Below are positions 1,339 through 39,168 of a stretch of DNA of 40,196 bases, piece by piece; the stretch's first letter is position 1, and every line of letters begins with the position of its first letter. Where the stretch lies: positions 1 to 40,196 of the IMG/VR virus record IMGVR_UViG_3300037440_000525. One strand, given 5' to 3'. This DNA is from a virus (taxonomy: Duplodnaviria > Caudoviricetes). The position numbers were made by a program, and so were the translations under genes. Under the pieces are notes generated by a model. It worked only from the letters and a program-made list of their open reading frames with translations, was not told the origin of the DNA and searched no databases.

Positions 1339-1613
1339 TAGATCTAGCAGATGAGATGTGTTCAAGAGCGAGAGCAATACTTAGATTTATTCAAAAGGAT
1401 GAATTTAAAGATGCTTTTAAAAACAACCCTGATACGGCCAAAGTTGAGTCATTGATTAAAAAAGGGGATGTAGAGGGGATTAAAAAGTTTATGACTCAGT
1501 ATCGTAGCAGTAAATATTCTAGTCGTAGTGAGCTTGTGCAAATGGGTAAGACAAAAGTAAAAAATGTTCACAGGCTAAAGAAAAGGGAAATCCTTGCCAA
1601 GCTGGGAGTTTAA
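1335..1613 (+). CDS. Hypothetical protein with possible C-terminal Rho-N-like helix-extension-helix
   Basis: ATG at 1335 overlaps the polymerase stop (ATGA); C-terminus SRSELVQMGKTKVKNVHRLKKREILAKL. Confidence 0.55.
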   Translation: MIDLADEMCSRARAILRFIQKDEFKDAFKNNPDTAKVESLIKKGDVEGIKKFMTQYRSSKYSSRSELVQMGKTKVKNVHRLKKREILAKLGV

Positions 1614-1935
1614 GACTAAAAAACCCGAAGAAATAATCAGGGACGCCGTCAAGCAATACATGGAAGCCAGGAGATGGATCGTAAAGATCACTGTTGGAAA
1701 TATGTATCAGAAAGGCTTCCCTGATTTTTTTTGTACTCATCGCAGACATGGAATGCGATGGGTTGAAATAAAACTACCTGAAATGAAAGGTAGTGTTTGG
1801 ACTAATGCACAAAAGAAAGAATTTCCACTGTTATTCGATAATGGAACTCCTATTTGGGTTATAACAGACCCGAATGAATATAATAAATTATTTGGACCAG
1901 CGAACTTAAAGGATTATATGACATGGACATCGTAA
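1594..1935 (+). CDS. VRR-NUC-like PD-(D/E)XK nuclease
   Basis: E..I...V, GFPDFF, WVEIK, T.AQ motifs; usual position beside a phage DNA polymerase. Confidence 0.8.
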   Translation: MPSWEFKTKKPEEIIRDAVKQYMEARRWIVKITVGNMYQKGFPDFFCTHRRHGMRWVEIKLPEMKGSVWTNAQKKEFPLLFDNGTPIWVITDPNEYNKLFGPANLKDYMTWTS

Positions 1936-1944
1936 AATGTTTAG

Positions 1945-1972
1945 TTGTTAATAAACTGAAAATAGGTAAAAT
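1945..1972 (+). promoter_or_regulatory. Possible sigma70-type promoter for tnpB
   Basis: TTGTTA-16 nt-TAAAAT. Confidence 0.35.
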
Positions 1973-1998
1973 AAAAAGCAACTTAAGGAAGCCTTAAA

Positions 1999-3195
1999 GT
2001 GATTACCGCACACAAAATAGAAATAAAGCCTAATAATAAGCAAGCCAACTTTTTATTAAGAAGTTGTGGTACGGCAAGGTACGCTTATAACATGGCTTTA
2101 GATTTATGGAATAAGGAATATCTTTCTGGTAATAAACCAACGGCTAATTCCATTGACAAAGAAATGAATAAGATAAAACCTAAATGGTGCTATGAAGTTT
2201 CTAAATGTTGTGTTCAGTCTTCAATTATTGATTTAGGTAAAGCCTTTTCAAACTTTTTTAAGAACAAACATTTTAAGCCCCCTACTTTTAAAAAGAAGGG
2301 GCAAAAAGATAGTTTCCGTTTAAATAATGAGCATTTTAAAATTAATAATAAAAAGTTAAAAATTGCTAAGTTAGATACAAAGATAAAGCTTACTGAAAAA
2401 TTAAGATTTGAAGGGAAGCTTTTATTTTGCACAATATCAAGAAAAGCAAACAAATGGTTTGCAAGTATAAACATTGAAGTTGAAGATTTACCTAAGAAAC
2501 CAATGAATCAAGAACCAAGATTTATTGGTGTTGACTTAGGTTTAAAAACACTTGCCGTAACAAGTGAAGGGGTTATTTATGATAACCTTAAACCACATAA
2601 AAATAAACTGCAAAAATTAAGAAGGCTAAATAAGTCTTTAAGTAGGAAGGTGCTTGGAAGTCAAAACTTTAAGAAAGCCAAGGTTAAACTTGGTTTATTA
2701 CATTACAAAATAGCTAATATCCGTAAAGATTATCTTCATAAAGTGACATCTGATCTTGTAAAAGGGCATGATGTTATCACTATTGAGGATTTGAATGTTT
2801 TAGGGATGTCTAAAAACAGAAAACTAAGTAGAAGTATTTTAGATGCATCCTTTGGGATATTTAAAACCTTACTTGAGTATAAATGCCAAAGAAAGAATGT
2901 TATTTTAGTTAAGGCTAATCGATTTTACCCAAGTACAAAGACTTGTTCAAAATGCGGTAGTATCCAAGAAATTAAGTTAAATGAAAGAACTTACGCTTGT
3001 AGTAAGTGTAACATGGTTATTGATAGGGATTATAATGCCTCTATCAATTTGAATAACTATGGCAAAAATTATATCGCAGGCCTTGCGACGAAAGTCTGTG
3101 GATTAGAAAGCTCTGACTCAGGGGATCGAGTGAAACTATCTAAGATGAAGCAGAAATCAAACATAAAAGCGAACACCGTTTTTAATAGGAATTGA
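1999..3195 (+). CDS. tnpB: RNA-guided endonuclease TnpB (IS607/IS605 OrfB family)
   Basis: N-terminus AHKIEIKPNNKQ..GTARYAYN; RuvC-I GVDLG, RuvC-II IEDL, zinc finger CSKCG..CSKC, RuvC-III DRDYNA; all three catalytic acidic residues present. Confidence 0.96.
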   Translation: MITAHKIEIKPNNKQANFLLRSCGTARYAYNMALDLWNKEYLSGNKPTANSIDKEMNKIKPKWCYEVSKCCVQSSIIDLGKAFSNFFKNKHFKPPTFKKKGQKDSFRLNNEHFKINNKKLKIAKLDTKIKLTEKLRFEGKLLFCTISRKANKWFASINIEVEDLPKKPMNQEPRFIGVDLGLKTLAVTSEGVIYDNLKPHKNKLQKLRRLNKSLSRKVLGSQNFKKAKVKLGLLHYKIANIRKDYLHKVTSDLVKGHDVITIEDLNVLGMSKNRKLSRSILDASFGIFKTLLEYKCQRKNVILVKANRFYPSTKTCSKCGSIQEIKLNERTYACSKCNMVIDRDYNASINLNNYGKNYIAGLATKVCGLESSDSGDRVKLSKMKQKSNIKANTVFNRN

Positions 3196-3207
3196 AATGC
3201 ACATCGG
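3070..3207 (+). ncRNA. Putative TnpB omegaRNA (reRNA) scaffold overlapping the tnpB 3' end
   Basis: Hairpins TCGCA/TGCGA (3074-3088), TTAGAAAG/CTATCTAA (3103-3143) enclosing ACTC/GAGT, and AAAAGCG/CGTTTTT (3165-3183); expected location for TnpB guide RNAs; boundaries uncertain. Confidence 0.6.
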
Positions 3208-3631
3208 AATATATGTAGATATTAGTAATTTATATTTTACAGGGTTTCACCATAGAAAAATGCAAGTTGACTATCGTAAACTTTATAATTATTGTAAGGA
3301 TTACGGTGACATAAAAGAAGCCCACGCCTACGGTGGAGCTATTGGAGACCAAGCAGACGGATTTAAAAAGGTATTGACAGACATTGGGTTTACACCTCAC
3401 TACAAAGAGCCAAAGACTTTCGCCTCGGGTAAAATGAAATGTGACTGGGATGTAGGTATGACTGTAGATATCATGAAAAGTAATCTTGATGGTTATATTA
3501 TATGTTCTGCTGATACAGATTTTGAACCATTAGTAAATTTTTTGCGTGAAAAAGATAAATATGTCCTAGTAATGGGCATAAATATTAAAAAAGGAATTGA
3601 AATACCTAAGTCAATATTCCTTGACAAATAA
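3197..3631 (+). CDS. NYN domain protein (LabA/DUF88, PIN-like fold)
   Basis: IYVDISNL, K.DWDVGMTVD, SADTDFEPLV..LRE..V.V.G motifs. Confidence 0.88.
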   Translation: MHIGIYVDISNLYFTGFHHRKMQVDYRKLYNYCKDYGDIKEAHAYGGAIGDQADGFKKVLTDIGFTPHYKEPKTFASGKMKCDWDVGMTVDIMKSNLDGYIICSADTDFEPLVNFLREKDKYVLVMGINIKKGIEIPKSIFLDK

Positions 3632-3648
3632 AATTAACATGTTATAAT
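3621..3648 (+). promoter_or_regulatory. Consensus sigma70 promoter with extended -10
   Basis: TTGACA (3621-3626)-16 nt-TATAAT (3643-3648) preceded by TGT; AAGGAG RBS and ATG at 3675 downstream. Confidence 0.85.
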
Positions 3649-3674
3649 CACTTTTATTTTAAGGAGATTACAAT

Positions 3675-3959
3675 ATGAATGCAGCAATAGAATTTACGAA
3701 TTTTGTTGGTAAAAAAAATGTTTTGTGTGCTTTTCTGTATACAGGAGAGAAAATATTCCGTCTAAAAAGATGTTATACTCAAAAAACTTATGAGAAATTT
3801 CTTAAGAGGTTGAATTTTGATTATGATGATGGTTATGGTGGTCAAGAACTGTTTGGTACTATCTGGTTCGAAGATGATACTTGGGCAGTAAGGGGCGAAT
3901 ACGATGGTTCGGAATGGTGGGAGCATATTGTACGACCTGAATTACCGAAAGGACTATAA
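3675..3959 (+). CDS. Hypothetical phage protein
   Basis: Strong RBS; YDDGYGGQELFGTIWF..W..RGEYDGSEWW looks like a conserved phage small-protein motif. Confidence 0.75.
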   Translation: MNAAIEFTNFVGKKNVLCAFLYTGEKIFRLKRCYTQKTYEKFLKRLNFDYDDGYGGQELFGTIWFEDDTWAVRGEYDGSEWWEHIVRPELPKGL

Positions 3960-4135
3960 TGTACGAGATAGAATTTATCAAAAAAGATGGGTCACTTCGC
4001 AAAATGAAATGTGAAATCCTTGGATGGAAAGATCGTTCCAAGGGTTTAGTTTTGGTTGAAGAAATCGGGGTTGGATTTAGATCGTTTTATTTAAATTCAG
4101 TAAGGAGGGTAAAACATGTTAAAAATATTAGCTGA
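3959..4135 (+). CDS. 58-aa SH3/Sm-fold (WYL_2-like) protein, absent from the ORF track
   Basis: MYEIEFIKKDGSLRKMKC...GFRSFYLNSV; start overlaps the upstream stop (TAATG). Confidence 0.65.
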   Translation: MYEIEFIKKDGSLRKMKCEILGWKDRSKGLVLVEEIGVGFRSFYLNSVRRVKHVKNIS

Positions 4136-6226: not shown

Positions 6227-6471
6227 TAGAGTTTTTAAACGCAGAGGATCGGAAGAAAATTGAAGGTATGTTGTTAGTACAGCAGAATGGAGAATGGGGA
6301 CCTGTAGAAGATGGAATGTTTTGCTCAGCAGTAGGTAAGGTTAGCTTAGGTAAGATTACCGGTGCTAAGCTCAAACCTGAAGGATATGAATGGAATATGG
6401 ATACCCAAGATTCAAATGAAGAAACAGAAACAGAAACAGAAACAGAAACAGAATTCCCTGAAGACTATTAA
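6223..6471 (+). CDS. Hypothetical protein with acidic (ET)n tail
   Basis: ATGA overlap with the upstream gene; followed by hairpins. Confidence 0.65.
   Translation: MIEFLNAEDRKKIEGMLLVQQNGEWGPVEDGMFCSAVGKVSLGKITGAKLKPEGYEWNMDTQDSNEETETETETETEFPEDY
6421..6450 (+). repeat. (GAAACA)5 in-frame microsatellite
   Basis: Five perfect copies encoding ETETETETET. Confidence 0.95.
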
Positions 6472-7214: not shown

Positions 7215-7344
7215 GTATACTAGTATACTTTCTCTGCACTGTCAGAAAGATGATATTTTTATACTAGTATACAAGGTCTATATTAGTAGTGGGTTAAAAC
7301 TTTTATATTATATATGTATAGACCTTATAATGTATACTAGTATA
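7215..7344. repeat. Cluster of TATACTAGTATA palindromes and a long imperfect inverted repeat
   Basis: GTATACTAGTATAC 7215-7228; TATACTAGTATA 7260-7271 and 7333-7344; AAGGTCTATA (7273-7282) pairs with TATAGACCTT (7317-7326). Confidence 0.85.
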
Positions 7345-7352
7345 ATAAAAAC

Positions 7353-7565
7353 CCCTTCTTTCAAAAAGTGAAAAAATATTTTTTTGGTACCGATCTAAAA
7401 TTTTTGCAAGTATTTTTAAGTACAAAAAACTTTTATAGTACTTTAAAAAATTTGAATTTAAAATTTTCCCTTCTTTCAAAAATTGAGAAAAAATTTTTTC
7501 GTAAGCCTAAAAAATTTTTGCAAGTATTTTTAAGTCTCAAAAAACTTTTGTATGCTTTAAAAAAT
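7353..7565. repeat. Degenerate direct repeat, two copies, period about 115 bp
   Basis: CCCTTCTTTCAAAAA at 7353 and 7468; identical 25-mer AAAATTTTTGCAAGTATTTTTAAGT at 7397 and 7511. Confidence 0.85.
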
Positions 7566-7826
7566 CGCAAAAAAATTTTTTATAAAAATCAAAAAAATTT
7601 TTAAAAAGTATCTGACAACTTAAAAATTTACATTATTTGTAAATCTTTTATCTTTTGCCCCTTATACAAAAATTTTTTAAAAGTCAAGACTTTTTTACAA
7701 TAAATTTTATATAAATTTAATCAAAAAATTTTTACAAATTTACTTGACAAAGTAAAAAAGTTTGTTACTCGCGCGTACATTATTATATACGAGCAAAAAA
7801 ATATTTAAATTTTTTGTAAAAAAGAC

Positions 7827-7854
7827 TTGACTACTTAAAAAAGTAGCGTAAAAT
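7827..7854 (+). promoter_or_regulatory. Sigma70-type promoter for the small-gene operon
   Basis: TTGACT-16 nt-TAAAAT with an AT-rich upstream tract. Confidence 0.65.
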
Positions 7855-7885
7855 TAAGACATAAAGATAAACGAGTTAAAAAGTT

Positions 7886-8005
7886 ATGACTACACAAGTA
7901 ATAATAAAAAGATTAGCTCGCAACCGCAAGATGTTAGAGATCTTGCTAAAACCAAAGCCAAAAAGTTTTTGGCTAAATTTTTTAAAAAAAGGAAAAAGAT
8001 TATGA
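7886..8005 (+). CDS. 39-aa basic small protein, absent from the ORF track
   Basis: MTTQVIIKRLARNRKMLEILLKPKPKSFWLNFLKKGKRL; follows the promoter; stop overlaps the next ATG (ATGA). Confidence 0.45.
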   Translation: MTTQVIIKRLARNRKMLEILLKPKPKSFWLNFLKKGKRL

Positions 8006-28877: not shown

Positions 28878-29670
28878 TGGCGAAGAACATACTCACATGC
28901 CCTACATTTTTGAAGACAAATTGTACCATTGTCGGGCTTCATTAGTTGATAGAATTCTAGAATTAGATGCTCATTCAACTCCCAGGCCAGGTTTTTCAAC
29001 TCCTTATAGAGCTTATGATATCTATAGATCCGACTTAGATGGGTCAAATATTGAAAAAATAGGAGGTGGTTTTGGCGAAAAATCAATTAATTGTTCGCCC
29101 ACCGCTTTTAGGGAAAATGGAATATTAAAAGTTAATTATGTTTCAACTCCGACTTCTTACTTAAGTACTCTTATTTACCGTCAATACCAAAAGAGTTTTG
29201 TAAATGGTGCTTGGACAATGAAGAAGTTTGTCCCAAATCCATTTGGTTTTAGGGTTTACTGTAATACAGAGGATGAAAGAAGACAATATTTTTGCTATGC
29301 TGCGTATCGGGATTCTCATTTATTTATTATAGATAAAACCTATAAGGTAAAAACAAATATTTGGTTTAAGTCAGGAGTTGGTATACTTAGAAGGGCAATA
29401 CCAGCAGGGGATAAGGTTTTAATAACTTACTCTACTTGGGACGACACTGAAATAAACACCTCATTAATTGATCTAAACAACATGACCAGTAAAAAAGTAA
29501 AAGTAAATGGAAGTCATATTTATAAATGCACCATGCACGAGGATTATGTGATTCACGCTGTGAAGAATCCTGGTGCTTATAATATGCAACTACATAAAGG
29601 CTATTTCACTTTATCCACCGATAACATAAGTTGGGAGGAAACAAGTGATATTTTCGTGGCCAATAGATAA
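28867..29670 (+). CDS. Hypothetical beta-rich protein (possible propeller)
   Basis: YDIYRSDLDGSNIEKI resembles a TolB-like blade; start uncertain. Confidence 0.55.
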   Translation: MVFNGEEHTHMPYIFEDKLYHCRASLVDRILELDAHSTPRPGFSTPYRAYDIYRSDLDGSNIEKIGGGFGEKSINCSPTAFRENGILKVNYVSTPTSYLSTLIYRQYQKSFVNGAWTMKKFVPNPFGFRVYCNTEDERRQYFCYAAYRDSHLFIIDKTYKVKTNIWFKSGVGILRRAIPAGDKVLITYSTWDDTEINTSLIDLNNMTSKKVKVNGSHIYKCTMHEDYVIHAVKNPGAYNMQLHKGYFTLSTDNISWEETSDIFVANR

Positions 29671-32600
29671 CCCAACTGTTTCGGTTACAGTTAGAGACCC
29701 TGATTATCGGGATCAAGTTACCGACCATGTTGGCACAACTTTAAAAAGAATGGAAGATGGAAAAGTAATCCCTTTCAATCAGTTAGAGGTTCAAAAAACT
29801 GTTTCAATGACTTTTAGTAACATCGGTTACAAAAGAATGAAAAAGTTTATGAAGTTTTTAATTGATACTAATGGCCAACCAATACGAGTGGAAGGTATAG
29901 CAGGTTTTACAGAAGATTCAGGGCAAACTTGTACTGTAATTACTGATCCATTTTCAATTATCACACAAAATAGACAGCATAAACAGTTAAACATCACTCT
30001 ATCTTTACAACAATCAATTGTCTTACAAGGTAAACACCAAGAAAGACCAGATGGTAATGCCTCTGGTGTTCCGTACCGCCATAATTCTTTTTACCTAATT
30101 GGTGGTAATGATGGTTTGGCTTTATTAGGGTACAATACTGAATATGCTAGATTTCTGGGTGAGGATGGGGTATGGACTGAAAGAGTACCTATTCTAGCTC
30201 CTGATAGAGAACATCATTGTGGTTTTACAGATGAAACCGATGGTTCTTTATATGTTACAGGAGGAACAAATGGATCTAGTAAACAGACTAGGGCTAATAA
30301 ATACACCCCTATTTTTGCTTCGGGTGGTACTTGGTTCACACTTAGTAGCTCATTGAATATCGCTAGAACAGATGCCGAAGGTTTTTATTTTGATGGTAAA
30401 GGATGGGTGACAGGTGGTAGAAATGTCACAAATGTTATAGACTCTATTGAAAATTATGAATTTGAAAGTTGGTCACAAAATATTTTATCTTTACCCTATG
30501 CAAGAGCTGATCACGCTAGTTTTGTAGCGGTAGTACAAGATCTTGGTTCAGGTAGTGGAAGTTCAGGTGTAGAGTTAGAATTACCTGATGAACAACCTTT
30601 TATTATTGGCGGTGTTAATTCAGTAGGTACGGTACTAGACTCCACCATTGTGCTTAGAAATGGTGCATGGGTTGAGGTAATGCCCTTAAATAATCCTGCA
30701 AAAAGTTTACGAGGTGGATATTCACAAAGTAATGATCAAGGGTATGTTTTCGGCGGTGAAGACAGTGGATTAACTGATAATGTAGAGACATATATACCAT
30801 CGGCAGATACTTGGGCTGTGTTAGCTACATTATTACCAAATGTTATTTCAGAGCATTCAGGAGCTTCACTTGTTGAAGCAATATATTCAATTGGTGGTAG
30901 AGATGGATCAACCATTTATGATACTAATTGGGAATATACGGAAGCAAATGCAATTTGGGTAGCAAGACAGCCAATAACTACAACGGGAAATTTAAATTCT
31001 CCTAGATACAATAGTATTGCATTGTCTTCATGGGCTGGTGGTTCACCTATACCCGAAGCTCAATTACCTGGAAATACTGAAGATACTCCTATTGGAGATT
31101 ATGTAGTTGTAACAGGGGGTAATAGTTTTACAGATACAGGATCGGATGCTAAAAAAGGGTATACATTAAATAATAATACTTGGACATGGGACTATGGTTC
31201 CTATGTTACTGAAAATAATTTACCTAAAGCTTTAGCTCTTCACCAACAAGGCGTAGTAAATAAAGAAGTTTTTGTTTTGGATGGTGCTACGAGTAGGGAT
31301 TACCCTGAATTTGGGGTATATAAATTTGATGTGGCAAAAACATGGTCTACCTTACTTGATTTAATTCAACCAGTTGGAGTAGGTTCAAGGAATGTTAGAT
31401 ATCTAGGCAATGCCGAAGTATACCAAGGTGATATTTACACAGTGAATGGAGCTAAGGAACCACCTATTAGTTTTAGATCTATAAATGGATCAATAGATGT
31501 TTTTAACCCATCGGCTGGATGGTCAAAAGAAATAACATTTCAAACACCTTTATATTTTTATACAGGGCATGTAAATGCTGCAAGTGCTTTATATCAAGAT
31601 CTTATTCTTCTTATAGCTGGTTTCGTTAGAAATGAAAATGGAATATCTACTGCACTAGTAAGAACTAATAAAGTTACAGGGTATAATATAACCACTAAAG
31701 CATTAAAAATAATGACCCCTATGTTAGCTTTAGGAGGCCCCCAAACTTTAAAATCTGGTTTGTCCGCTTTAAATATAAATAATGATATTTATTCATTTAG
31801 TGGTGCTTACACAAACTTATTGATAGATAAAAGAACATTAAAATATGACCCATTGTTAGATGTTTGGACAGACCAAGCCCCAGGAACAGATCAAGCTGTT
31901 GCCCCACAAAATTATGGTTGTGCAAATACTTCCATTGATACTAATGGTATGACTTGTGGTGGTGAGGATGGGGATGGAGGCAAGTTTGGGAACACCATGA
32001 TTTATGACACACTAACTAATGCATGGGGAACAAGTGCAGTTACTCCTATTTCATTATCTGAGTGTCGAGCATCTTTAACTAACAAAATAACAGATGTTGT
32101 AGCAGGTGCCGATGTTGTTTTAGTTGGGGGGAATAGTCATACTAGTAGAAATGTAGCGTCAAATTGTTACAGGCATAATGTTATTAACAATGTCTACACT
32201 AAAATACCTACTCTATCTTTCTTGCATTCTTTTGCTTGTGAGACTTTGAATGATCTTGTTTATGCTATTGGTGTCAATCTTTTTGACTCAACCTATGATG
32301 TTGCAGGGTATAATAATTCAAGAACTGTAAATGTTTATGATCCTGGTACTGGCTCTATTGCTACGGGTTTTGAATTTAATTGGGATACCCAGACAACTAA
32401 TTACACTAAAATACCAAATGGAGTTCCATATAATGAAATGGCTCACGCTGCATATAATAATGAAATGTATTTATATGCAGGTGTAACAGGAAATGCAAAT
32501 AGATCCCAACCTTTTGTTAATTATGGAGTCCTTGACCCAGCTGATAGACAAATATTTAAATATGATCCACTTGGATTAGCGGGAGTGACTAAAGGAGCTT

Positions 32601-33160
32601 TTATTCAGTCTCAAGATCAATTGACAGGTGGTGGATTACAGAAGAAAGCTACTAATAATCAAGATAAAAATTATATAATAGGTGGGCATGCATTCTTTAC
32701 TATATTTAAATCAGGTGGTAGAATAGGCTCTAATATAATTAATTCTCATAACAAACACGATTTAGGGTTTGATAGTGTCACTGTTTTAGAAAACACTCCC
32801 GCCCCTTTAACGGATGGGTGCTATGCGTCAATGGCTGATGGGGACAATTATTATGTTTCAGGGAGTTATGATTCAAGTGTATGGAAATACGATGTTTCTG
32901 GAGACTCTTATAGTAATGAAAGGGATTTTAAAAGATTTTTTTCAGGTACTGGTAGAGCAAGGGGTAATTTCTTCCATCTATACCCAGGTTTAAATGAAAG
33001 TACACCTCCTTTTGGGGATAGTTCTGTTTATACAACAAGACCTAACCCAACAAGAGAGACATATATTTTTAGTTTAGTAGGGAATTTTATATCGCACTCT
33101 GGTTTTGTGCCAGATGGTGATGCAGGGCTTGGTATTAGGCGTAATTCAACTTTAGTTTAA
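29645..33160 (+). CDS. Tail protein with Dit-like N-terminus and multiple Kelch beta-propellers
   Basis: Many Kelch blades (LYVTGG, GWVTGG, YVFGG, IYSIGG..YD/YE..W); GGAGGA RBS. Confidence 0.85.
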   Translation: MIFSWPIDNPTVSVTVRDPDYRDQVTDHVGTTLKRMEDGKVIPFNQLEVQKTVSMTFSNIGYKRMKKFMKFLIDTNGQPIRVEGIAGFTEDSGQTCTVITDPFSIITQNRQHKQLNITLSLQQSIVLQGKHQERPDGNASGVPYRHNSFYLIGGNDGLALLGYNTEYARFLGEDGVWTERVPILAPDREHHCGFTDETDGSLYVTGGTNGSSKQTRANKYTPIFASGGTWFTLSSSLNIARTDAEGFYFDGKGWVTGGRNVTNVIDSIENYEFESWSQNILSLPYARADHASFVAVVQDLGSGSGSSGVELELPDEQPFIIGGVNSVGTVLDSTIVLRNGAWVEVMPLNNPAKSLRGGYSQSNDQGYVFGGEDSGLTDNVETYIPSADTWAVLATLLPNVISEHSGASLVEAIYSIGGRDGSTIYDTNWEYTEANAIWVARQPITTTGNLNSPRYNSIALSSWAGGSPIPEAQLPGNTEDTPIGDYVVVTGGNSFTDTGSDAKKGYTLNNNTWTWDYGSYVTENNLPKALALHQQGVVNKEVFVLDGATSRDYPEFGVYKFDVAKTWSTLLDLIQPVGVGSRNVRYLGNAEVYQGDIYTVNGAKEPPISFRSINGSIDVFNPSAGWSKEITFQTPLYFYTGHVNAASALYQDLILLIAGFVRNENGISTALVRTNKVTGYNITTKALKIMTPMLALGGPQTLKSGLSALNINNDIYSFSGAYTNLLIDKRTLKYDPLLDVWTDQAPGTDQAVAPQNYGCANTSIDTNGMTCGGEDGDGGKFGNTMIYDTLTNAWGTSAVTPISLSECRASLTNKITDVVAGADVVLVGGNSHTSRNVASNCYRHNVINNVYTKIPTLSFLHSFACETLNDLVYAIGVNLFDSTYDVAGYNNSRTVNVYDPGTGSIATGFEFNWDTQTTNYTKIPNGVPYNEMAHAAYNNEMYLYAGVTGNANRSQPFVNYGVLDPADRQIFKYDPLGLAGVTKGAFIQSQDQLTGGGLQKKATNNQDKNYIIGGHAFFTIFKSGGRIGSNIINSHNKHDLGFDSVTVLENTPAPLTDGCYASMADGDNYYVSGSYDSSVWKYDVSGDSYSNERDFKRFFSGTGRARGNFFHLYPGLNESTPPFGDSSVYTTRPNPTRETYIFSLVGNFISHSGFVPDGDAGLGIRRNSTLV

Positions 33161-37187: not shown

Positions 37188-37465
37188 GGTTTATGCCTGG
37201 ACCTAATGGAACGCTTATAGCCCCTTCACGGGGGGTCCCTCCAGTTCCTCCAGAGGGCTATAAGCGTTCCTCTTCAAATGAATGGGTTTTCGAACCCATA
37301 CTCCCCTATTGTGAATCGAGGGAATTACGAAAAAAATATGCTAGGGGATGTAATGCTTGTGGAAGTAATCCATTGCAAATTTTTTGTTTAAAAGATAATT
37401 CTTTCGTTATCCCTCAAATCTGTAAAAAGTGCCCTCATGCGACTATTCCTGACAACATTTCATAG
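37184..37465 (+). CDS. Small Pro/Cys-rich protein (possibly metal-binding)
   Basis: PPVPPEGY; C..CNAC..C..CKKC. Confidence 0.6.
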   Translation: MRFMPGPNGTLIAPSRGVPPVPPEGYKRSSSNEWVFEPILPYCESRELRKKYARGCNACGSNPLQIFCLKDNSFVIPQICKKCPHATIPDNIS

Positions 37466-38144
37466 AGACGATCTTCTTGCTATGGGCTTAGGCTCAATTG
37501 ATCGAGGTGATTGGGAAATAACCGTGTTAAATGACGGTAGAGAAAATGATGTCACAATGGATATTTGTCAAACTTATGGAGTGGATTACATTTGGACAGG
37601 TCAGAGGCATAAAGAAAAACTACTTTGGAGAGTCCCAGGGTTTGCATTAAATATCGGGGTTAAAGCCTACAATGATGAAATAATAGCTATTTCTTGTGCT
37701 GAAATGTATCATTTAACTCCTTTCCTTAAAAATGCCCAGAAGATTTTACAAGGGCATCCAAAAGGGATTGTTCACCCCCTTGAAGGGAAAGATGATACAG
37801 GGGCTTACCTAAATGATGTTAAATCCTTTGATAAATTACCTAATTTAAATATGAAATTACCTTTTCTAATGGCAATGTCTAGGTCATCCTATGTTGAAAT
37901 AGGGGGTTATGATGAGGACTTTACAGGGCAATCTTATGATGATAATGATATAGTAGATAGACTTATCGCTAATGGTTGCTATTATATTACTACACCTGAT
38001 AAATGTGTTCATTTATATCATAGTCGTGACACAGCCGATAAAAGGGACCGTGGAAGACTGGATTATAATAAAAAACTATATTTGGAACGAAAAGGGAAAG
38101 TAGTACGCAATGAAAACAGAGAATGGGGTTTACTCGACAGATAA
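37437..38144 (+). CDS. GT-A glycosyltransferase (GT2 / GT7 C-terminal-like)
   Basis: EITVLNDG, ALNIGV, IGGYDEDFTGQSYDDNDIVDRL, HLYH. Confidence 0.88.
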   Translation: MRLFLTTFHRDDLLAMGLGSIDRGDWEITVLNDGRENDVTMDICQTYGVDYIWTGQRHKEKLLWRVPGFALNIGVKAYNDEIIAISCAEMYHLTPFLKNAQKILQGHPKGIVHPLEGKDDTGAYLNDVKSFDKLPNLNMKLPFLMAMSRSSYVEIGGYDEDFTGQSYDDNDIVDRLIANGCYYITTPDKCVHLYHSRDTADKRDRGRLDYNKKLYLERKGKVVRNENREWGLLDR

Positions 38145-39168
38145 AGTTTTATACCACCCTAAAGTGGTTGAAGCTTTTATAACTCATAACTCACATTACC
38201 TACCCCCAATATTTATTCAATTGATGCCTCAAAATGTTTGTAATCAGAACTGCCATTTTTGCTCATATAGATTAGATAATTGGAAAAATTCTGAAAAATT
38301 CAATGATAAGACATGGTTAGAATGGGAAGTATTAAACCGTGCCCTAGACGATATGAAGGAATTAAATGTTAAGGCGATTGAAATTACAGGAGGTGGTGAG
38401 CCTTTAGCATACCAATACATTCATGAACTTTTAGAATATTGTACTGAATGGGGAGTTGAAACCTCACTAGTAACTAATGGTTCTTTATTAAACGATAAAA
38501 AAGCTGATGCATTATTTAAAACCAATTTGAAATGGGCAAGGGTATCAATTGATTCTGGTAAAAGAGAGACTTATGAAAAAATTAGAGAGGCCAAGCACTG
38601 GGGGAAAGCTTGGGAAGGAATTGCAAGACTTGTTGAACGAAGAACAGATCAAGCTATTGGAGTTGGTTTCGTTGTCACTAACGAAAACTTTGACGAAGTA
38701 TATATGCTATGTGAAAAGGCAGCGGAATATAAAGTAGATAATGTTAGAGTATCCGTAGCTTTCACACCTAAAGGGGCATCTATAATAACCCCCGAACAAG
38801 TGAGTCTTGTTTGTGAACAAATTGAATATGCTTCTATGGATTTTAAAATAGATATCCCTAATGTATTTAAAGAAAGAGTAGACAACTTAAACACCACCCA
38901 AGATTATGATTACTGTGGCTCTAAAGATTTACTTTGTGTGATCGAGGGTGAGGGAAAAGTATATACTTGTTGTACCTTGACTGGATCTGATAAAGGAATA
39001 ATGGGAAATATCAAAGATTCTCCATTTAAAGATATATGGAGAGATATGTCGGGCTGGAGAAAAAATTTAAATCCATCTAAATTATGTAATATGCCTTGCT
39101 TATACGAAAGTCGGAATAAAATAATGAATAAATTAAGAAACCCTCCTAAGCACTTGAATTTTATATGA
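38110..39168 (+). CDS. Radical SAM protein with SPASM/twitch domain
   Basis: CNQNCHFC, ITGGGEPL, VTNG, RVSID; C-terminal C..G.VYTCC..MGNI..C...C. Confidence 0.93.
   Translation: MKTENGVYSTDKVLYHPKVVEAFITHNSHYLPPIFIQLMPQNVCNQNCHFCSYRLDNWKNSEKFNDKTWLEWEVLNRALDDMKELNVKAIEITGGGEPLAYQYIHELLEYCTEWGVETSLVTNGSLLNDKKADALFKTNLKWARVSIDSGKRETYEKIREAKHWGKAWEGIARLVERRTDQAIGVGFVVTNENFDEVYMLCEKAAEYKVDNVRVSVAFTPKGASIITPEQVSLVCEQIEYASMDFKIDIPNVFKERVDNLNTTQDYDYCGSKDLLCVIEGEGKVYTCCTLTGSDKGIMGNIKDSPFKDIWRDMSGWRKNLNPSKLCNMPCLYESRNKIMNKLRNPPKHLNFI

What the first reader, a model, noticed from the sequence alone, without database searches (positions are those of the whole stretch)
1909..3230. TnpB cassette inserted into the start of the NYN gene, with a replacement RBS and start codon at its far end
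Seen: ATGGACATCG (1923-1932, with AAGGA 9 nt upstream) lies left of tnpB, and ATGCACATCG (3197-3206, with AGGA) lies right of it. Deleting 1933-3206 restores a NYN ORF starting MDIGIYVDISN from the left start and extends VRR-NUC by EYM*. The orphaned left start now reads a 24-codon ORF (1923-1997) that stops 1 nt before the tnpB GTG. Known: IS607/IS605 transposases do not normally make 10-bp target duplications, whereas free-standing homing endonucleases can regenerate the ends of genes they interrupt. Inference: this is a transposase-free, phenotypically silent TnpB cassette behaving like an RNA-guided homing element between phages, with its predicted guide drawn from the NYN 5' end.
Basis: partly seen in the sequence, partly recalled or inferred. 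Interest (0 to 1): 0.75.

Follow-up and report, generated by a model that had tools for sequence, protein, structure and literature searches.

The report
Gutted IS607 supplies phage gene's start
A transposon remnant that kept its RNA-guided nuclease gene (tnpB) but lost its transposase sits in the first codons of a phage gene, and the end of its predicted guide-RNA scaffold holds a replacement start codon, so it likely spares that gene while it could cut related phages that lack it.

Summary
The cassette is an internally deleted IS607, not a transposon-free invention. A 13-codon tnpA tail (1964-2002) still overlaps the tnpB start, and 6 of 9 sister loci with a left flank carry IS607 tnpA. A covariance model built only from relatives ends the omegaRNA scaffold at 3202. 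The AGGA and ATG therefore belong to the element, and the guide is NYN from codon 3. Left TGGAC versus right TGCAC differ at -3 (G/C), the known IS607 self/non-self rule. The repeat runs beyond 10 bp: 12 of 16 guide bases recur after the left motif, followed by a left-end-like sequence at 1945. One relative (L164) has an exact 13-bp version, although IS607 is described as making no duplications. VRR-NUC-like joined directly to NYN without tnpB occurs in 17 of 36 distant phages, but no close empty allele was found. Homing is plausible but untested; 'silent' is doubtful because the AUG lies in the pseudoknot strand. This scan noted similar start-rebuilding TnpB elements on other DNA. Verdict: new variant of a known kind.

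The parts
1594..1935 (+). VRR-NUC-like endonuclease gene (host phage gene, left flank)
   Evidence: ORF; weak family support only; homologs lie upstream of NYN in 28 of 36 viral NYN loci
1909..1913 (+). AAGGA, RBS-like, 9 nt before ATG1923, inside the VRR-NUC-like coding sequence
   Evidence: sequence; function not tested
1923..1928 (+). Left ATG and predicted TAM-like motif (TGGAC, -3 G); candidate original NYN start
   Evidence: -3 is G at 16 of 16 left junctions of relatives that precede a recognisable tnpA start (rows counted by hand); measured IS607 TAMs AGGAG, TGGG, GGG (PMC11061315, PMC10690162, 10.1101/2023.08.09.552727); TAM not measured here
1929..1944 (+). Degenerate copy of guide positions 1-16 (mismatches at 5, 8, 11, 13); holds the VRR stop (1933-1935) and a second ATG (1937)
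   Evidence: 12/16, binomial p=3.6e-4; mismatch positions; best GGA[CG]-anchored match to the guide in the contig
1923..1997 (+). 24-codon chimeric leader ORF ending 1 nt before the tnpB start
   Evidence: role in tnpB translation is inference
1945..1958 (+). Probable truncated IS607 left end, after an AG core at 1943-1944
   Evidence: same first 7 bases as the L082/L083 left end plus the AACTG motif of relatives; the 9-mer occurs once in 80.4 kb of both strands (pattern chosen after seeing it); far shorter than the 49-59 nt left ends of relatives
1964..2002 (+). 3' stub of IS607 tnpA (13 codons, one internal stop), overlapping the tnpB GTG and supplying its AAGGA
   Evidence: profile from 8 relatives' TnpA tails scores it first of 80,316 windows, 21.5 versus next 12.2 bits
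1999..3195 (+). tnpB, 398 aa, RuvC D179/E263/D344 and zinc finger C316/C319/C334/C337 intact
   Evidence: Pfam; residues; 6 of 7 differences in a variant contig of run X1 are synonymous
3066..3202 (+). Predicted omegaRNA scaffold / IS607 right end; hairpin 3074-3088 whose loop pairs 3 of 4 with 3197-3200
   Evidence: covariance model R1 built from 21 relatives only: 3066-3202, 74.5 bits, E 1.3e-17; end-ruler motif gives the single candidate 3202; pseudoknot 97.6% paired in relatives; 5' end not mapped
3187..3199 (+). Element-borne AGGA (3187-3190) and ATG (3197-3199), the replacement NYN start; tnpB stop at 3193-3195
   Evidence: inside the scaffold; the U of AUG is the one unpaired pseudoknot base; use as a start not tested
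3203..3222 (+). Predicted guide: NYN from codon 3
   Evidence: follows the scaffold end; about 17-20 nt by analogy with ISXfa1 and ISFba1
3197..3631 (+). NYN-domain gene, 144 aa, acidic motif residues kept, 8 aa shorter near the C-terminus than 15 of 15 aligned homologs
   Evidence: Pfam PF01936 E 6e-25; alignment; AlphaFold mean pLDDT 95.7

Best explanation
This is a non-autonomous IS607 element, with tnpA deleted down to a 13-codon stub, that sits in the first codons of a phage NYN gene; its own right end carries the AGGA and ATG that keep NYN in frame, and its intact TnpB is predicted to use NYN's first codons as guide and likely spreads or persists by cutting related phages that lack it. 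Shown: the anatomy, IS607 ancestry, scaffold end at 3202, reading frames. Inferred: (1) An IS607 with tnpA inserted at a core dinucleotide 6 nt into NYN, after a G-rich TAM-like motif. The ATG-G-AC / ATG-C-AC likeness is the normal TAM versus right-end pair. (2) The 16 bases after the left motif are a leftover of the target: TnpB cut an empty allele near +16, and the unresected end was joined to the left end through a short microhomology ending in AG. (3) That leftover then gathered seed mismatches (5, 8, 11, 13) that make the carrier immune. (4) With a truncated left end the element probably cannot be excised by TnpA, so cleavage-driven recombination between co-infecting phages is its remaining route. 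(5) Because the RBS and AUG lie in the omegaRNA 3' end, each transcript would serve either as NYN mRNA or as guide RNA.
For: tnpA stub. Sister loci at 55-59% identity: 6 of 9 with a left flank have tnpA and 3 of 9 have stubs; L164 TnpA passes NF033518. Scaffold end 3202 by covariance model and ruler. -3 G left versus -3 C right matches 16 of 16 relatives and Cbo TGGG/TCGG and ISXfa1 GGG/CGG (passages). TAM-contacting N121/N122 of ISFba1 align near N109/N110. Duplication statistics. L164 has TAM-like AAGAG, then 13 exact guide bases, then its left end (p=0.002). ISFba1 cuts the non-target strand at +16 and is sensitive to single mismatches at 1-13. 17 of 36 phage loci show the tnpB-free gene order and 0 of 36 have tnpB nearby. 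Mostly synonymous variation in tnpB. TnpA-independent spread of IS605 between plasmids is cited in the review PMC13565253.
Against: No close empty allele found; the tnpB-free loci are only 25-44% identical in NYN, too distant to be targets. An AC core was seen in none of 55 relatives (AG 22, GG 31, GC 2), and single TAM changes abolish ISFba1 cutting, so TGGAC may not be a TAM. Using ATG1923 as the original start means a 22-nt overlap; relatives range from -8 to +44 (17 loci), and the conserved Tyr-to-ATG distance is 5 nt versus 13-63 in 16 of 17 (one mis-called). Asp at position 2 occurs in 0 of 81 homologs (His in 1). Left-copy hits in relatives at p<0.05 are 3 of 58, about chance; only L164 is strong. 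The locus was picked for its repeat, so its p-values are inflated. MAFFT alone aligns the right end 10 nt further on. NCBIfam scores the TnpB higher to IS200_TnpB than IS607_TnpB, both below cut-off. Pseudoknot is 3 of 4.
Confidence: 0.55

Rival explanations
1. Same IS607 remnant, different history. The original NYN start was ATG1937, 1 nt after the VRR stop. The element inserted at the AG core 1943-1944, as sister elements do, and later lost one base of its right-end core, which brought its ATG into frame with NYN. The 10-16-bp likeness is chance or pre-existing. The empty allele then has no G-rich TAM next to the guide, so TnpB may have no natural target and the cassette is a tolerated passenger.
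For: In frame by arithmetic; stop-to-start gap +1 and Tyr-to-ATG 19 nt fall in the relatives' range; start offset 5 is the commonest in homologs (27 of 81); AG core and left-end start match the sister clade; VRR-NUC-like gene unchanged.
Against: -3 would be T, against 16 of 16 relatives with G; needs a 1-nt deletion; leaves a 22/30 match as chance (p=0.002-0.003), while a real analogue exists in L164.
Confidence: 0.22
2. One reading: a domesticated, purpose-built RNA-guided homing cassette, fixed at this site across the phage lineage, with a regenerated gene end under selection and no cost to the phage.
For: Closest TnpBs P0002 (76%, 87.8-kb contig) and P0003 (73%, 22-kb contig) share the long C-terminal tail that ends at the same register; the contig's estimated full size is near 98 kb (41% complete); the U of AUG costs one pseudoknot pair, and P0002's encoded residues are compatible with a compensating loop base (inference from protein).
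Against: tnpA stub and left-end remnant mark recent IS607 ancestry; tnpA-deleted sisters L082/L083 sit at different sites; the DNA of P0002/P0003 could not be read; silence untested.
Confidence: 0.13
3. Decaying passenger: TnpB or its RNA no longer works, NYN is dispensable and drifting, and the in-frame ATG is incidental.
For: Pseudoknot mismatch where relatives are 97.6% paired; NYN lacks an 8-aa stretch present in 15 of 15 homologs and has no relative above 44% among cluster representatives.
Against: All catalytic and zinc residues intact; variant contig 6 of 7 synonymous; NYN folds at pLDDT 95.7 with motif aspartates kept.
Confidence: 0.1

Closest known systems
IS607-family elements with TnpB/omegaRNA: CboIStron (PMC10690162), ISXfa1 (10.1101/2023.08.09.552727), ISFba1 (PMC11061315, PDB 8iaz)
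   Same: tnpB overlapping a tnpA end; right-end scaffold with hairpin-loop pseudoknot before a core dinucleotide; G-rich TAM versus C at -3 in the right end; guide from the right flank.
   Different: tnpA reduced to a stub; core reads AC; right end contains an in-frame AUG; left side carries a degenerate copy of the guide, whereas IS607 is described as making no target duplication (PMC6188088).
IStrons (group I intron plus IS605/IS607; PMC10690162)
   Same: A TnpB element inside a gene that leaves the gene expressible; guide-RNA maturation competes with host-gene expression on one transcript (shown for IStrons, inferred here).
   Different: No intron: only 70 nt lie between the left junction and tnpB, and Rfam found no intron family. 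Rescue is by a new start codon, not by splicing.
Free-standing phage homing endonucleases (T4 Seg/Mob, intronless homing; review PMC13565253)
   Same: Endonuclease gene between conserved phage genes, predicted to cut kin that lack it and to spare its carrier through sequence differences.
   Different: RNA-guided and IS-derived; cleavage and spread not shown.
TnpB-only IS elements in phages (ISCaje1-3 of Campylobacter phages, PMC2853527)
   Same: TnpB-only insertion elements in phage genomes.
   Different: Those are classed IS200/IS605 with an AT-rich target; the passages read do not mention start codons (0 occurrences).

Membership tests
IS607 family (non-autonomous derivative) | Serine-recombinase TnpA upstream of tnpB | tested here: not met
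   Only a 13-codon stub; no PF00239 in the contig, which is 41% complete; present in 6 of 9 sister loci with a left flank. Not an autonomous member; descent is supported.
IS607 family (non-autonomous derivative) | Right-end omegaRNA with pseudoknot strand ending in C before a core dinucleotide | tested here: met
   3 of 4 pairs
IS607 family (non-autonomous derivative) | Matching core dinucleotide at both junctions, usually GG or AG | tested here: inconclusive
   AC at 1927-1928 and 3201-3202, or AG at 1943-1944 against AC; AC in 0 of 55 relatives
IS607 family (non-autonomous derivative) | No target-site duplication | tested here: not met
   degenerate 16-bp or longer repeat; taken as a secondary repair product or chance
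IS607 family (non-autonomous derivative) | Left end of about 40-60 bp for TnpA binding | tested here: not met
   at most 19 nt (from 1945) or 35 nt (from 1929) before the stub, versus 49-59 nt in relatives and a 40-bp minimum for Cbo
IS607 family (non-autonomous derivative) | TnpB passes the IS607_TnpB profile | tested here: inconclusive
   223 versus cut-off 350; IS200_TnpB 296 versus 425; guided_TnpB passed
Active RNA-guided TnpB nuclease | RuvC D-E-D and zinc finger intact | tested here: met
Active RNA-guided TnpB nuclease | omegaRNA expressed; TAM- and guide-dependent cleavage | not testable with these tools
   no RNA holder listed; needs bench work
Free-standing homing endonuclease | Empty and occupied alleles in recombining close relatives | tested here: inconclusive
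   gene order empty in 17 of 36 distant phages; no close empty allele
Free-standing homing endonuclease | Cuts the empty allele, spares self, and is over-inherited in crosses | not testable with these tools
   self-sparing predicted from -3 C at right and seed mismatches at left
IStron | Group I intron at the left end | tested here: not met
   70 nt available; no intron family in Rfam scan of 1500-4000
IS200/IS605 (Y1 transposase) | HUH TnpA or its remnant, AT-rich TAM | tested here: not met
   the remnant matches serine TnpA tails; the closest loci carry serine TnpA

The most novel reading that the evidence does not exclude
A lineage of phage-resident IS607 remnants (this one, P0002, P0003) has become a site-fixed RNA-guided homing element. 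Its omegaRNA pseudoknot strand doubles as the host gene's start codon, kept at the cost of a base pair, so TnpB binding switches each transcript between guide RNA and NYN mRNA. The TAM-plus-partial-guide copies at the left (here and in L164) are scars of TnpB cut-and-repair, a so far undescribed source of target duplications in IS607.
Probability: 0.2. Interest if true: 0.72.

Novelty: new variant of a known kind. Interest (0 to 1): 0.45.

Why it matters
It gives a concrete, testable case of how an RNA-guided transposon remnant can sit inside a phage gene at low cost without an intron, by lending its guide-RNA end as a translation start. If the left-hand partial guide copy is a cut-and-repair scar, such scars would mark natural TnpB homing events in sequence data; TnpB-driven spread between phages has been proposed but I found no demonstration of it in 7 searches. 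If rival 1 holds, it is an ordinary IS607 relic rescued by a one-base change.

Tried and rejected
Close empty allele: not found with single-protein scans of IMG/VR (L081 was a spurious 11-aa hit), the VRR alignment, GenBank phages (best about 25%), or contigs of runs X1 and X2. Those showed no joint, but 1-2127 was not covered, so the left junction was not sampled; one X1 contig runs unbroken across the right junction, and contigs drop rare variants. No RNA holder listed. DNA of the closest TnpBs (P0002-P0005, Logan only) could not be read, and an exact omegaRNA pattern found nothing in IMG/VR. GTDB scan gave only distant hits. MAFFT's alternative end near 3212: rejected because it loses the -3 C and the pseudoknot, and the covariance model and ruler give 3202. 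Plain MFE folding of 3040-3230 is no better than shuffles (z=0.75). Promoter scan at chance level (13 versus 10.4), apart from a perfect consensus at 3621-3648. L019's left-copy hit lies in an A-rich tnpA end and was rejected. A 30-36-nt duplication with no left end: possible but less likely, since 1945-1958 alone is not significant and looks like a left end. IStron and IS605: rejected (membership rows). Literature: 7 searches listed no paper on a TnpB right end supplying a start codon or on partial guide duplication at IS607 left ends; the library lacks most subscription papers and I read no supplements.

Full report
Observation. The window is a linear phage contig, estimated 41% complete, held in a sediment metagenome run. 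The order is DNA polymerase A, a small ORF, a VRR-NUC-like gene (to 1935), tnpB (1999-3195) and NYN (3197-3631). The repeat is longer than reported. The diagonal 1918-1958 / 3192-3232 matches at 28 of 41 without gaps. The signal is concentrated in the first 16 bases after 1928 (12/16); the next 14 are not significant (8/14). The locus was selected for its repeat, so these p-values are optimistic.

What the element is. TnpB keeps RuvC D179/E263/D344 and four zinc cysteines. Profiles do not settle the family, but context does. Eleven loci at 55-59% identity were fetched. Two lack a left flank; of the other nine, six carry serine-type tnpA and three carry tnpA stubs, and L164's TnpA passes the IS607 transposase cut-off. 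In the window, 1964-2002 is the tail of such a tnpA: a profile from 8 relatives' tails ranks it first of 80,316 windows. It overlaps the tnpB GTG, as in intact elements. So the cassette is a deletion derivative of IS607, which is common in this clade.

Where it ends on the right. Copies of relatives at different sites end in four bases that finish with C, plus a core dinucleotide. Those four bases pair with the loop of the first hairpin: 97.6% of cells are paired in 21 relatives, and two of the four pairs show two-sided changes. This pseudoknot is described for ISXfa1 (passages). A covariance model from those relatives alone matches the window at 3066-3202 (E 1.3e-17), and a motif 18 nt from the end gives the same single candidate. 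Hence AGGA (3187-3190) and ATG (3197-3199) are element sequence, and ATG is three of the four pseudoknot bases; its middle base is the one mismatch. The guide starts at 3203, NYN codon 3. None of the 55 relatives tabulated has ATG at this -6 position, though many AG-core ones sit just before a start codon (14 of 22). A plain MAFFT alignment places the end 10 nt further on; I rejected it for the reasons listed.

Why the two ends look alike. Before the junctions the left reads TGGAC and the right TGCAC. G at -3 on the left and C at -3 on the right is the published way IS607 TnpBs avoid cutting themselves: Cbo TGGG versus TCGG (PMC10690162, passages and section 6) and ISXfa1 GGG versus CGG. All 16 relatives' left junctions that precede a recognisable tnpA start have -3 G (rows counted by hand; other regex rows were chance matches and dropped). 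The measured ISFba1 TAM is AGGAG, sharing GGA with the left motif. The residue aligned to ISFba1 K83, which reads -1, is Q73 here and E in P0002-P0004, so -1 specificity is open.

The left side. After the motif come 16 bases resembling the guide, with mismatches at 5, 8, 11 and 13. Then AG and a sequence like the sister left end begin at 1945 (unique 9-mer in 80.4 kb, chosen post hoc), and then the tnpA stub. IS607 is described as making no target duplications (PMC6188088, passages). I tested 58 relatives for a left copy of their guide (37, 21 more; loci with ambiguous ends or short flanks were skipped). Three reached p<0.05, which is chance level overall. L164 is strong: TAM-like motif, 13 exact guide bases, then its left end (p=0.002). 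L125 has independent protein-level support. ISFba1 cuts the non-target strand mostly at +16 and is impaired by single mismatches at 1-13. My inference is that an unresected +16 end was joined to the left end and then mutated to escape cutting. If the donor's left core was AG, as in sisters, its last six bases would match guide positions 11-16 at five of six. This step is a hypothesis.

The empty allele. A profile scan fetched 36 viral NYN loci. 28 have the VRR-NUC-like gene within 2.5 kb upstream, 17 directly adjacent by an ATG start, and none has a tnpB hit. The uninterrupted gene order is therefore the family norm, but these phages are distant. A second in-frame reconstruction uses ATG1937, 1 nt after the VRR stop, with the AG core at 1943-1944 and loss of one base from the right core. 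It fits family spacing but breaks the -3 G rule. I could not decide between them; no close empty allele was found.

Function. Shown: intact catalytic residues, mostly synonymous natural variation (6 of 7 in one variant contig; 1 of 3 listed differences in X2), NYN in frame and foldable. Inferred: cleavage of kin lacking the element and copying by recombination. The review PMC13565253 (abstract, sections 3.2, 5.7 and part 1 of 6) treats such copying between phages as theoretical and cites TnpA-independent spread between plasmids (PMC11870625, of which I saw only passages). [quoted passage not shown] Since this omegaRNA would contain NYN's RBS and AUG, silence is doubtful, and a trade-off like that in IStrons is predicted. 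A consensus promoter at 3621-3648 would protect later genes.

Comparison and novelty. It works like a free-standing homing endonuclease if cleavage is confirmed, and it descends from IS607; it is not an autonomous IS607, an IStron or an IS605. Seven literature searches listed nothing on right-end-supplied start codons or partial guide duplications; supplements were not read and could bear on this. PMC2853527 (passages) reports TnpB-only elements in Campylobacter phages. Earlier notes of this scan describe start-rebuilding and duplicate-flanked phage TnpB elements on other DNA. They are unchecked leads, not support; they pointed me to PMC11061315 and PMC2853527. None overlaps this sequence.

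Verdict. Observation confirmed, interpretation partly supported. New variant of a known kind; interest 0.45. The distinctive points are the AUG inside the pseudoknot strand and the TAM-plus-partial-guide scar with an exact parallel in L164.

Noticed in passing
L164:1835-1893 and 3690-3702: Full IS607 in a phage contig whose left junction is TAM-like AAGAG followed by an exact 13-bp copy of the guide; the usual AACTG left-end motif is missing. It may be close to self-cleavable.
   Followed up: partly
L125:2271-2320 and 3681-3725: tnpB cassette (40% identity) whose guide region encodes a displaced C-terminus of the upstream gene, while the gene itself ends in a diverged, in-frame version of the same peptide: a functional, probably immune duplicate.
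   Followed up: partly
22 AG-core and 31 GG-core related loci: An ORF of 60 aa or more starts within 20 nt after the right end in 14 of 22 AG-core loci versus 8 of 31 GG-core loci, fitting insertion between RBS and start codon; no background control was run.
   Followed up: partly
L031, L034, L055, L059, L078 and related gut-phage loci: A tnpB-only element at many sites, with GTAT at the left and CTAT at the right junction, often followed by G so that an ATG is formed at the right end.
   Followed up: no
L082 and L083:2373-3717: tnpA-deleted sister elements that keep both full ends and sit at different sites; a tnpA-bearing relative (L084) is on the same contig as L082.
   Followed up: partly
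L104:229-320: tnpB-only sister with a tnpA stub very like the window's; the first 4 bases after its apparent left and right junctions are identical (junction judged by eye).
   Followed up: no
window 3575-3600: NYN lacks an 8-aa stretch found in 15 of 15 aligned homologs; a variant in run X2 differs just upstream of 3596.
   Followed up: partly
window 3621-3648: Perfect sigma-70 consensus (12/12, extended TG) at the NYN end, which would shield downstream genes from polar effects of the insertion.
   Followed up: no
window 2670-2803: Run X1 holds a second tnpB haplotype over 134 nt with 7 differences, 6 synonymous, suggesting recombination with a related tnpB.
   Followed up: partly
window 29645-33160 and 37437-39168: A 1171-aa kelch-repeat protein after the tail genes, and a glycosyltransferase plus radical SAM/SPASM pair near the contig end.
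   Followed up: no
window 6420-6460 and 7300-7900: A Glu-Thr repeat at the end of a small ORF and a very A/T-rich repetitive stretch without clear genes (seen in ORF translations).
   Followed up: no
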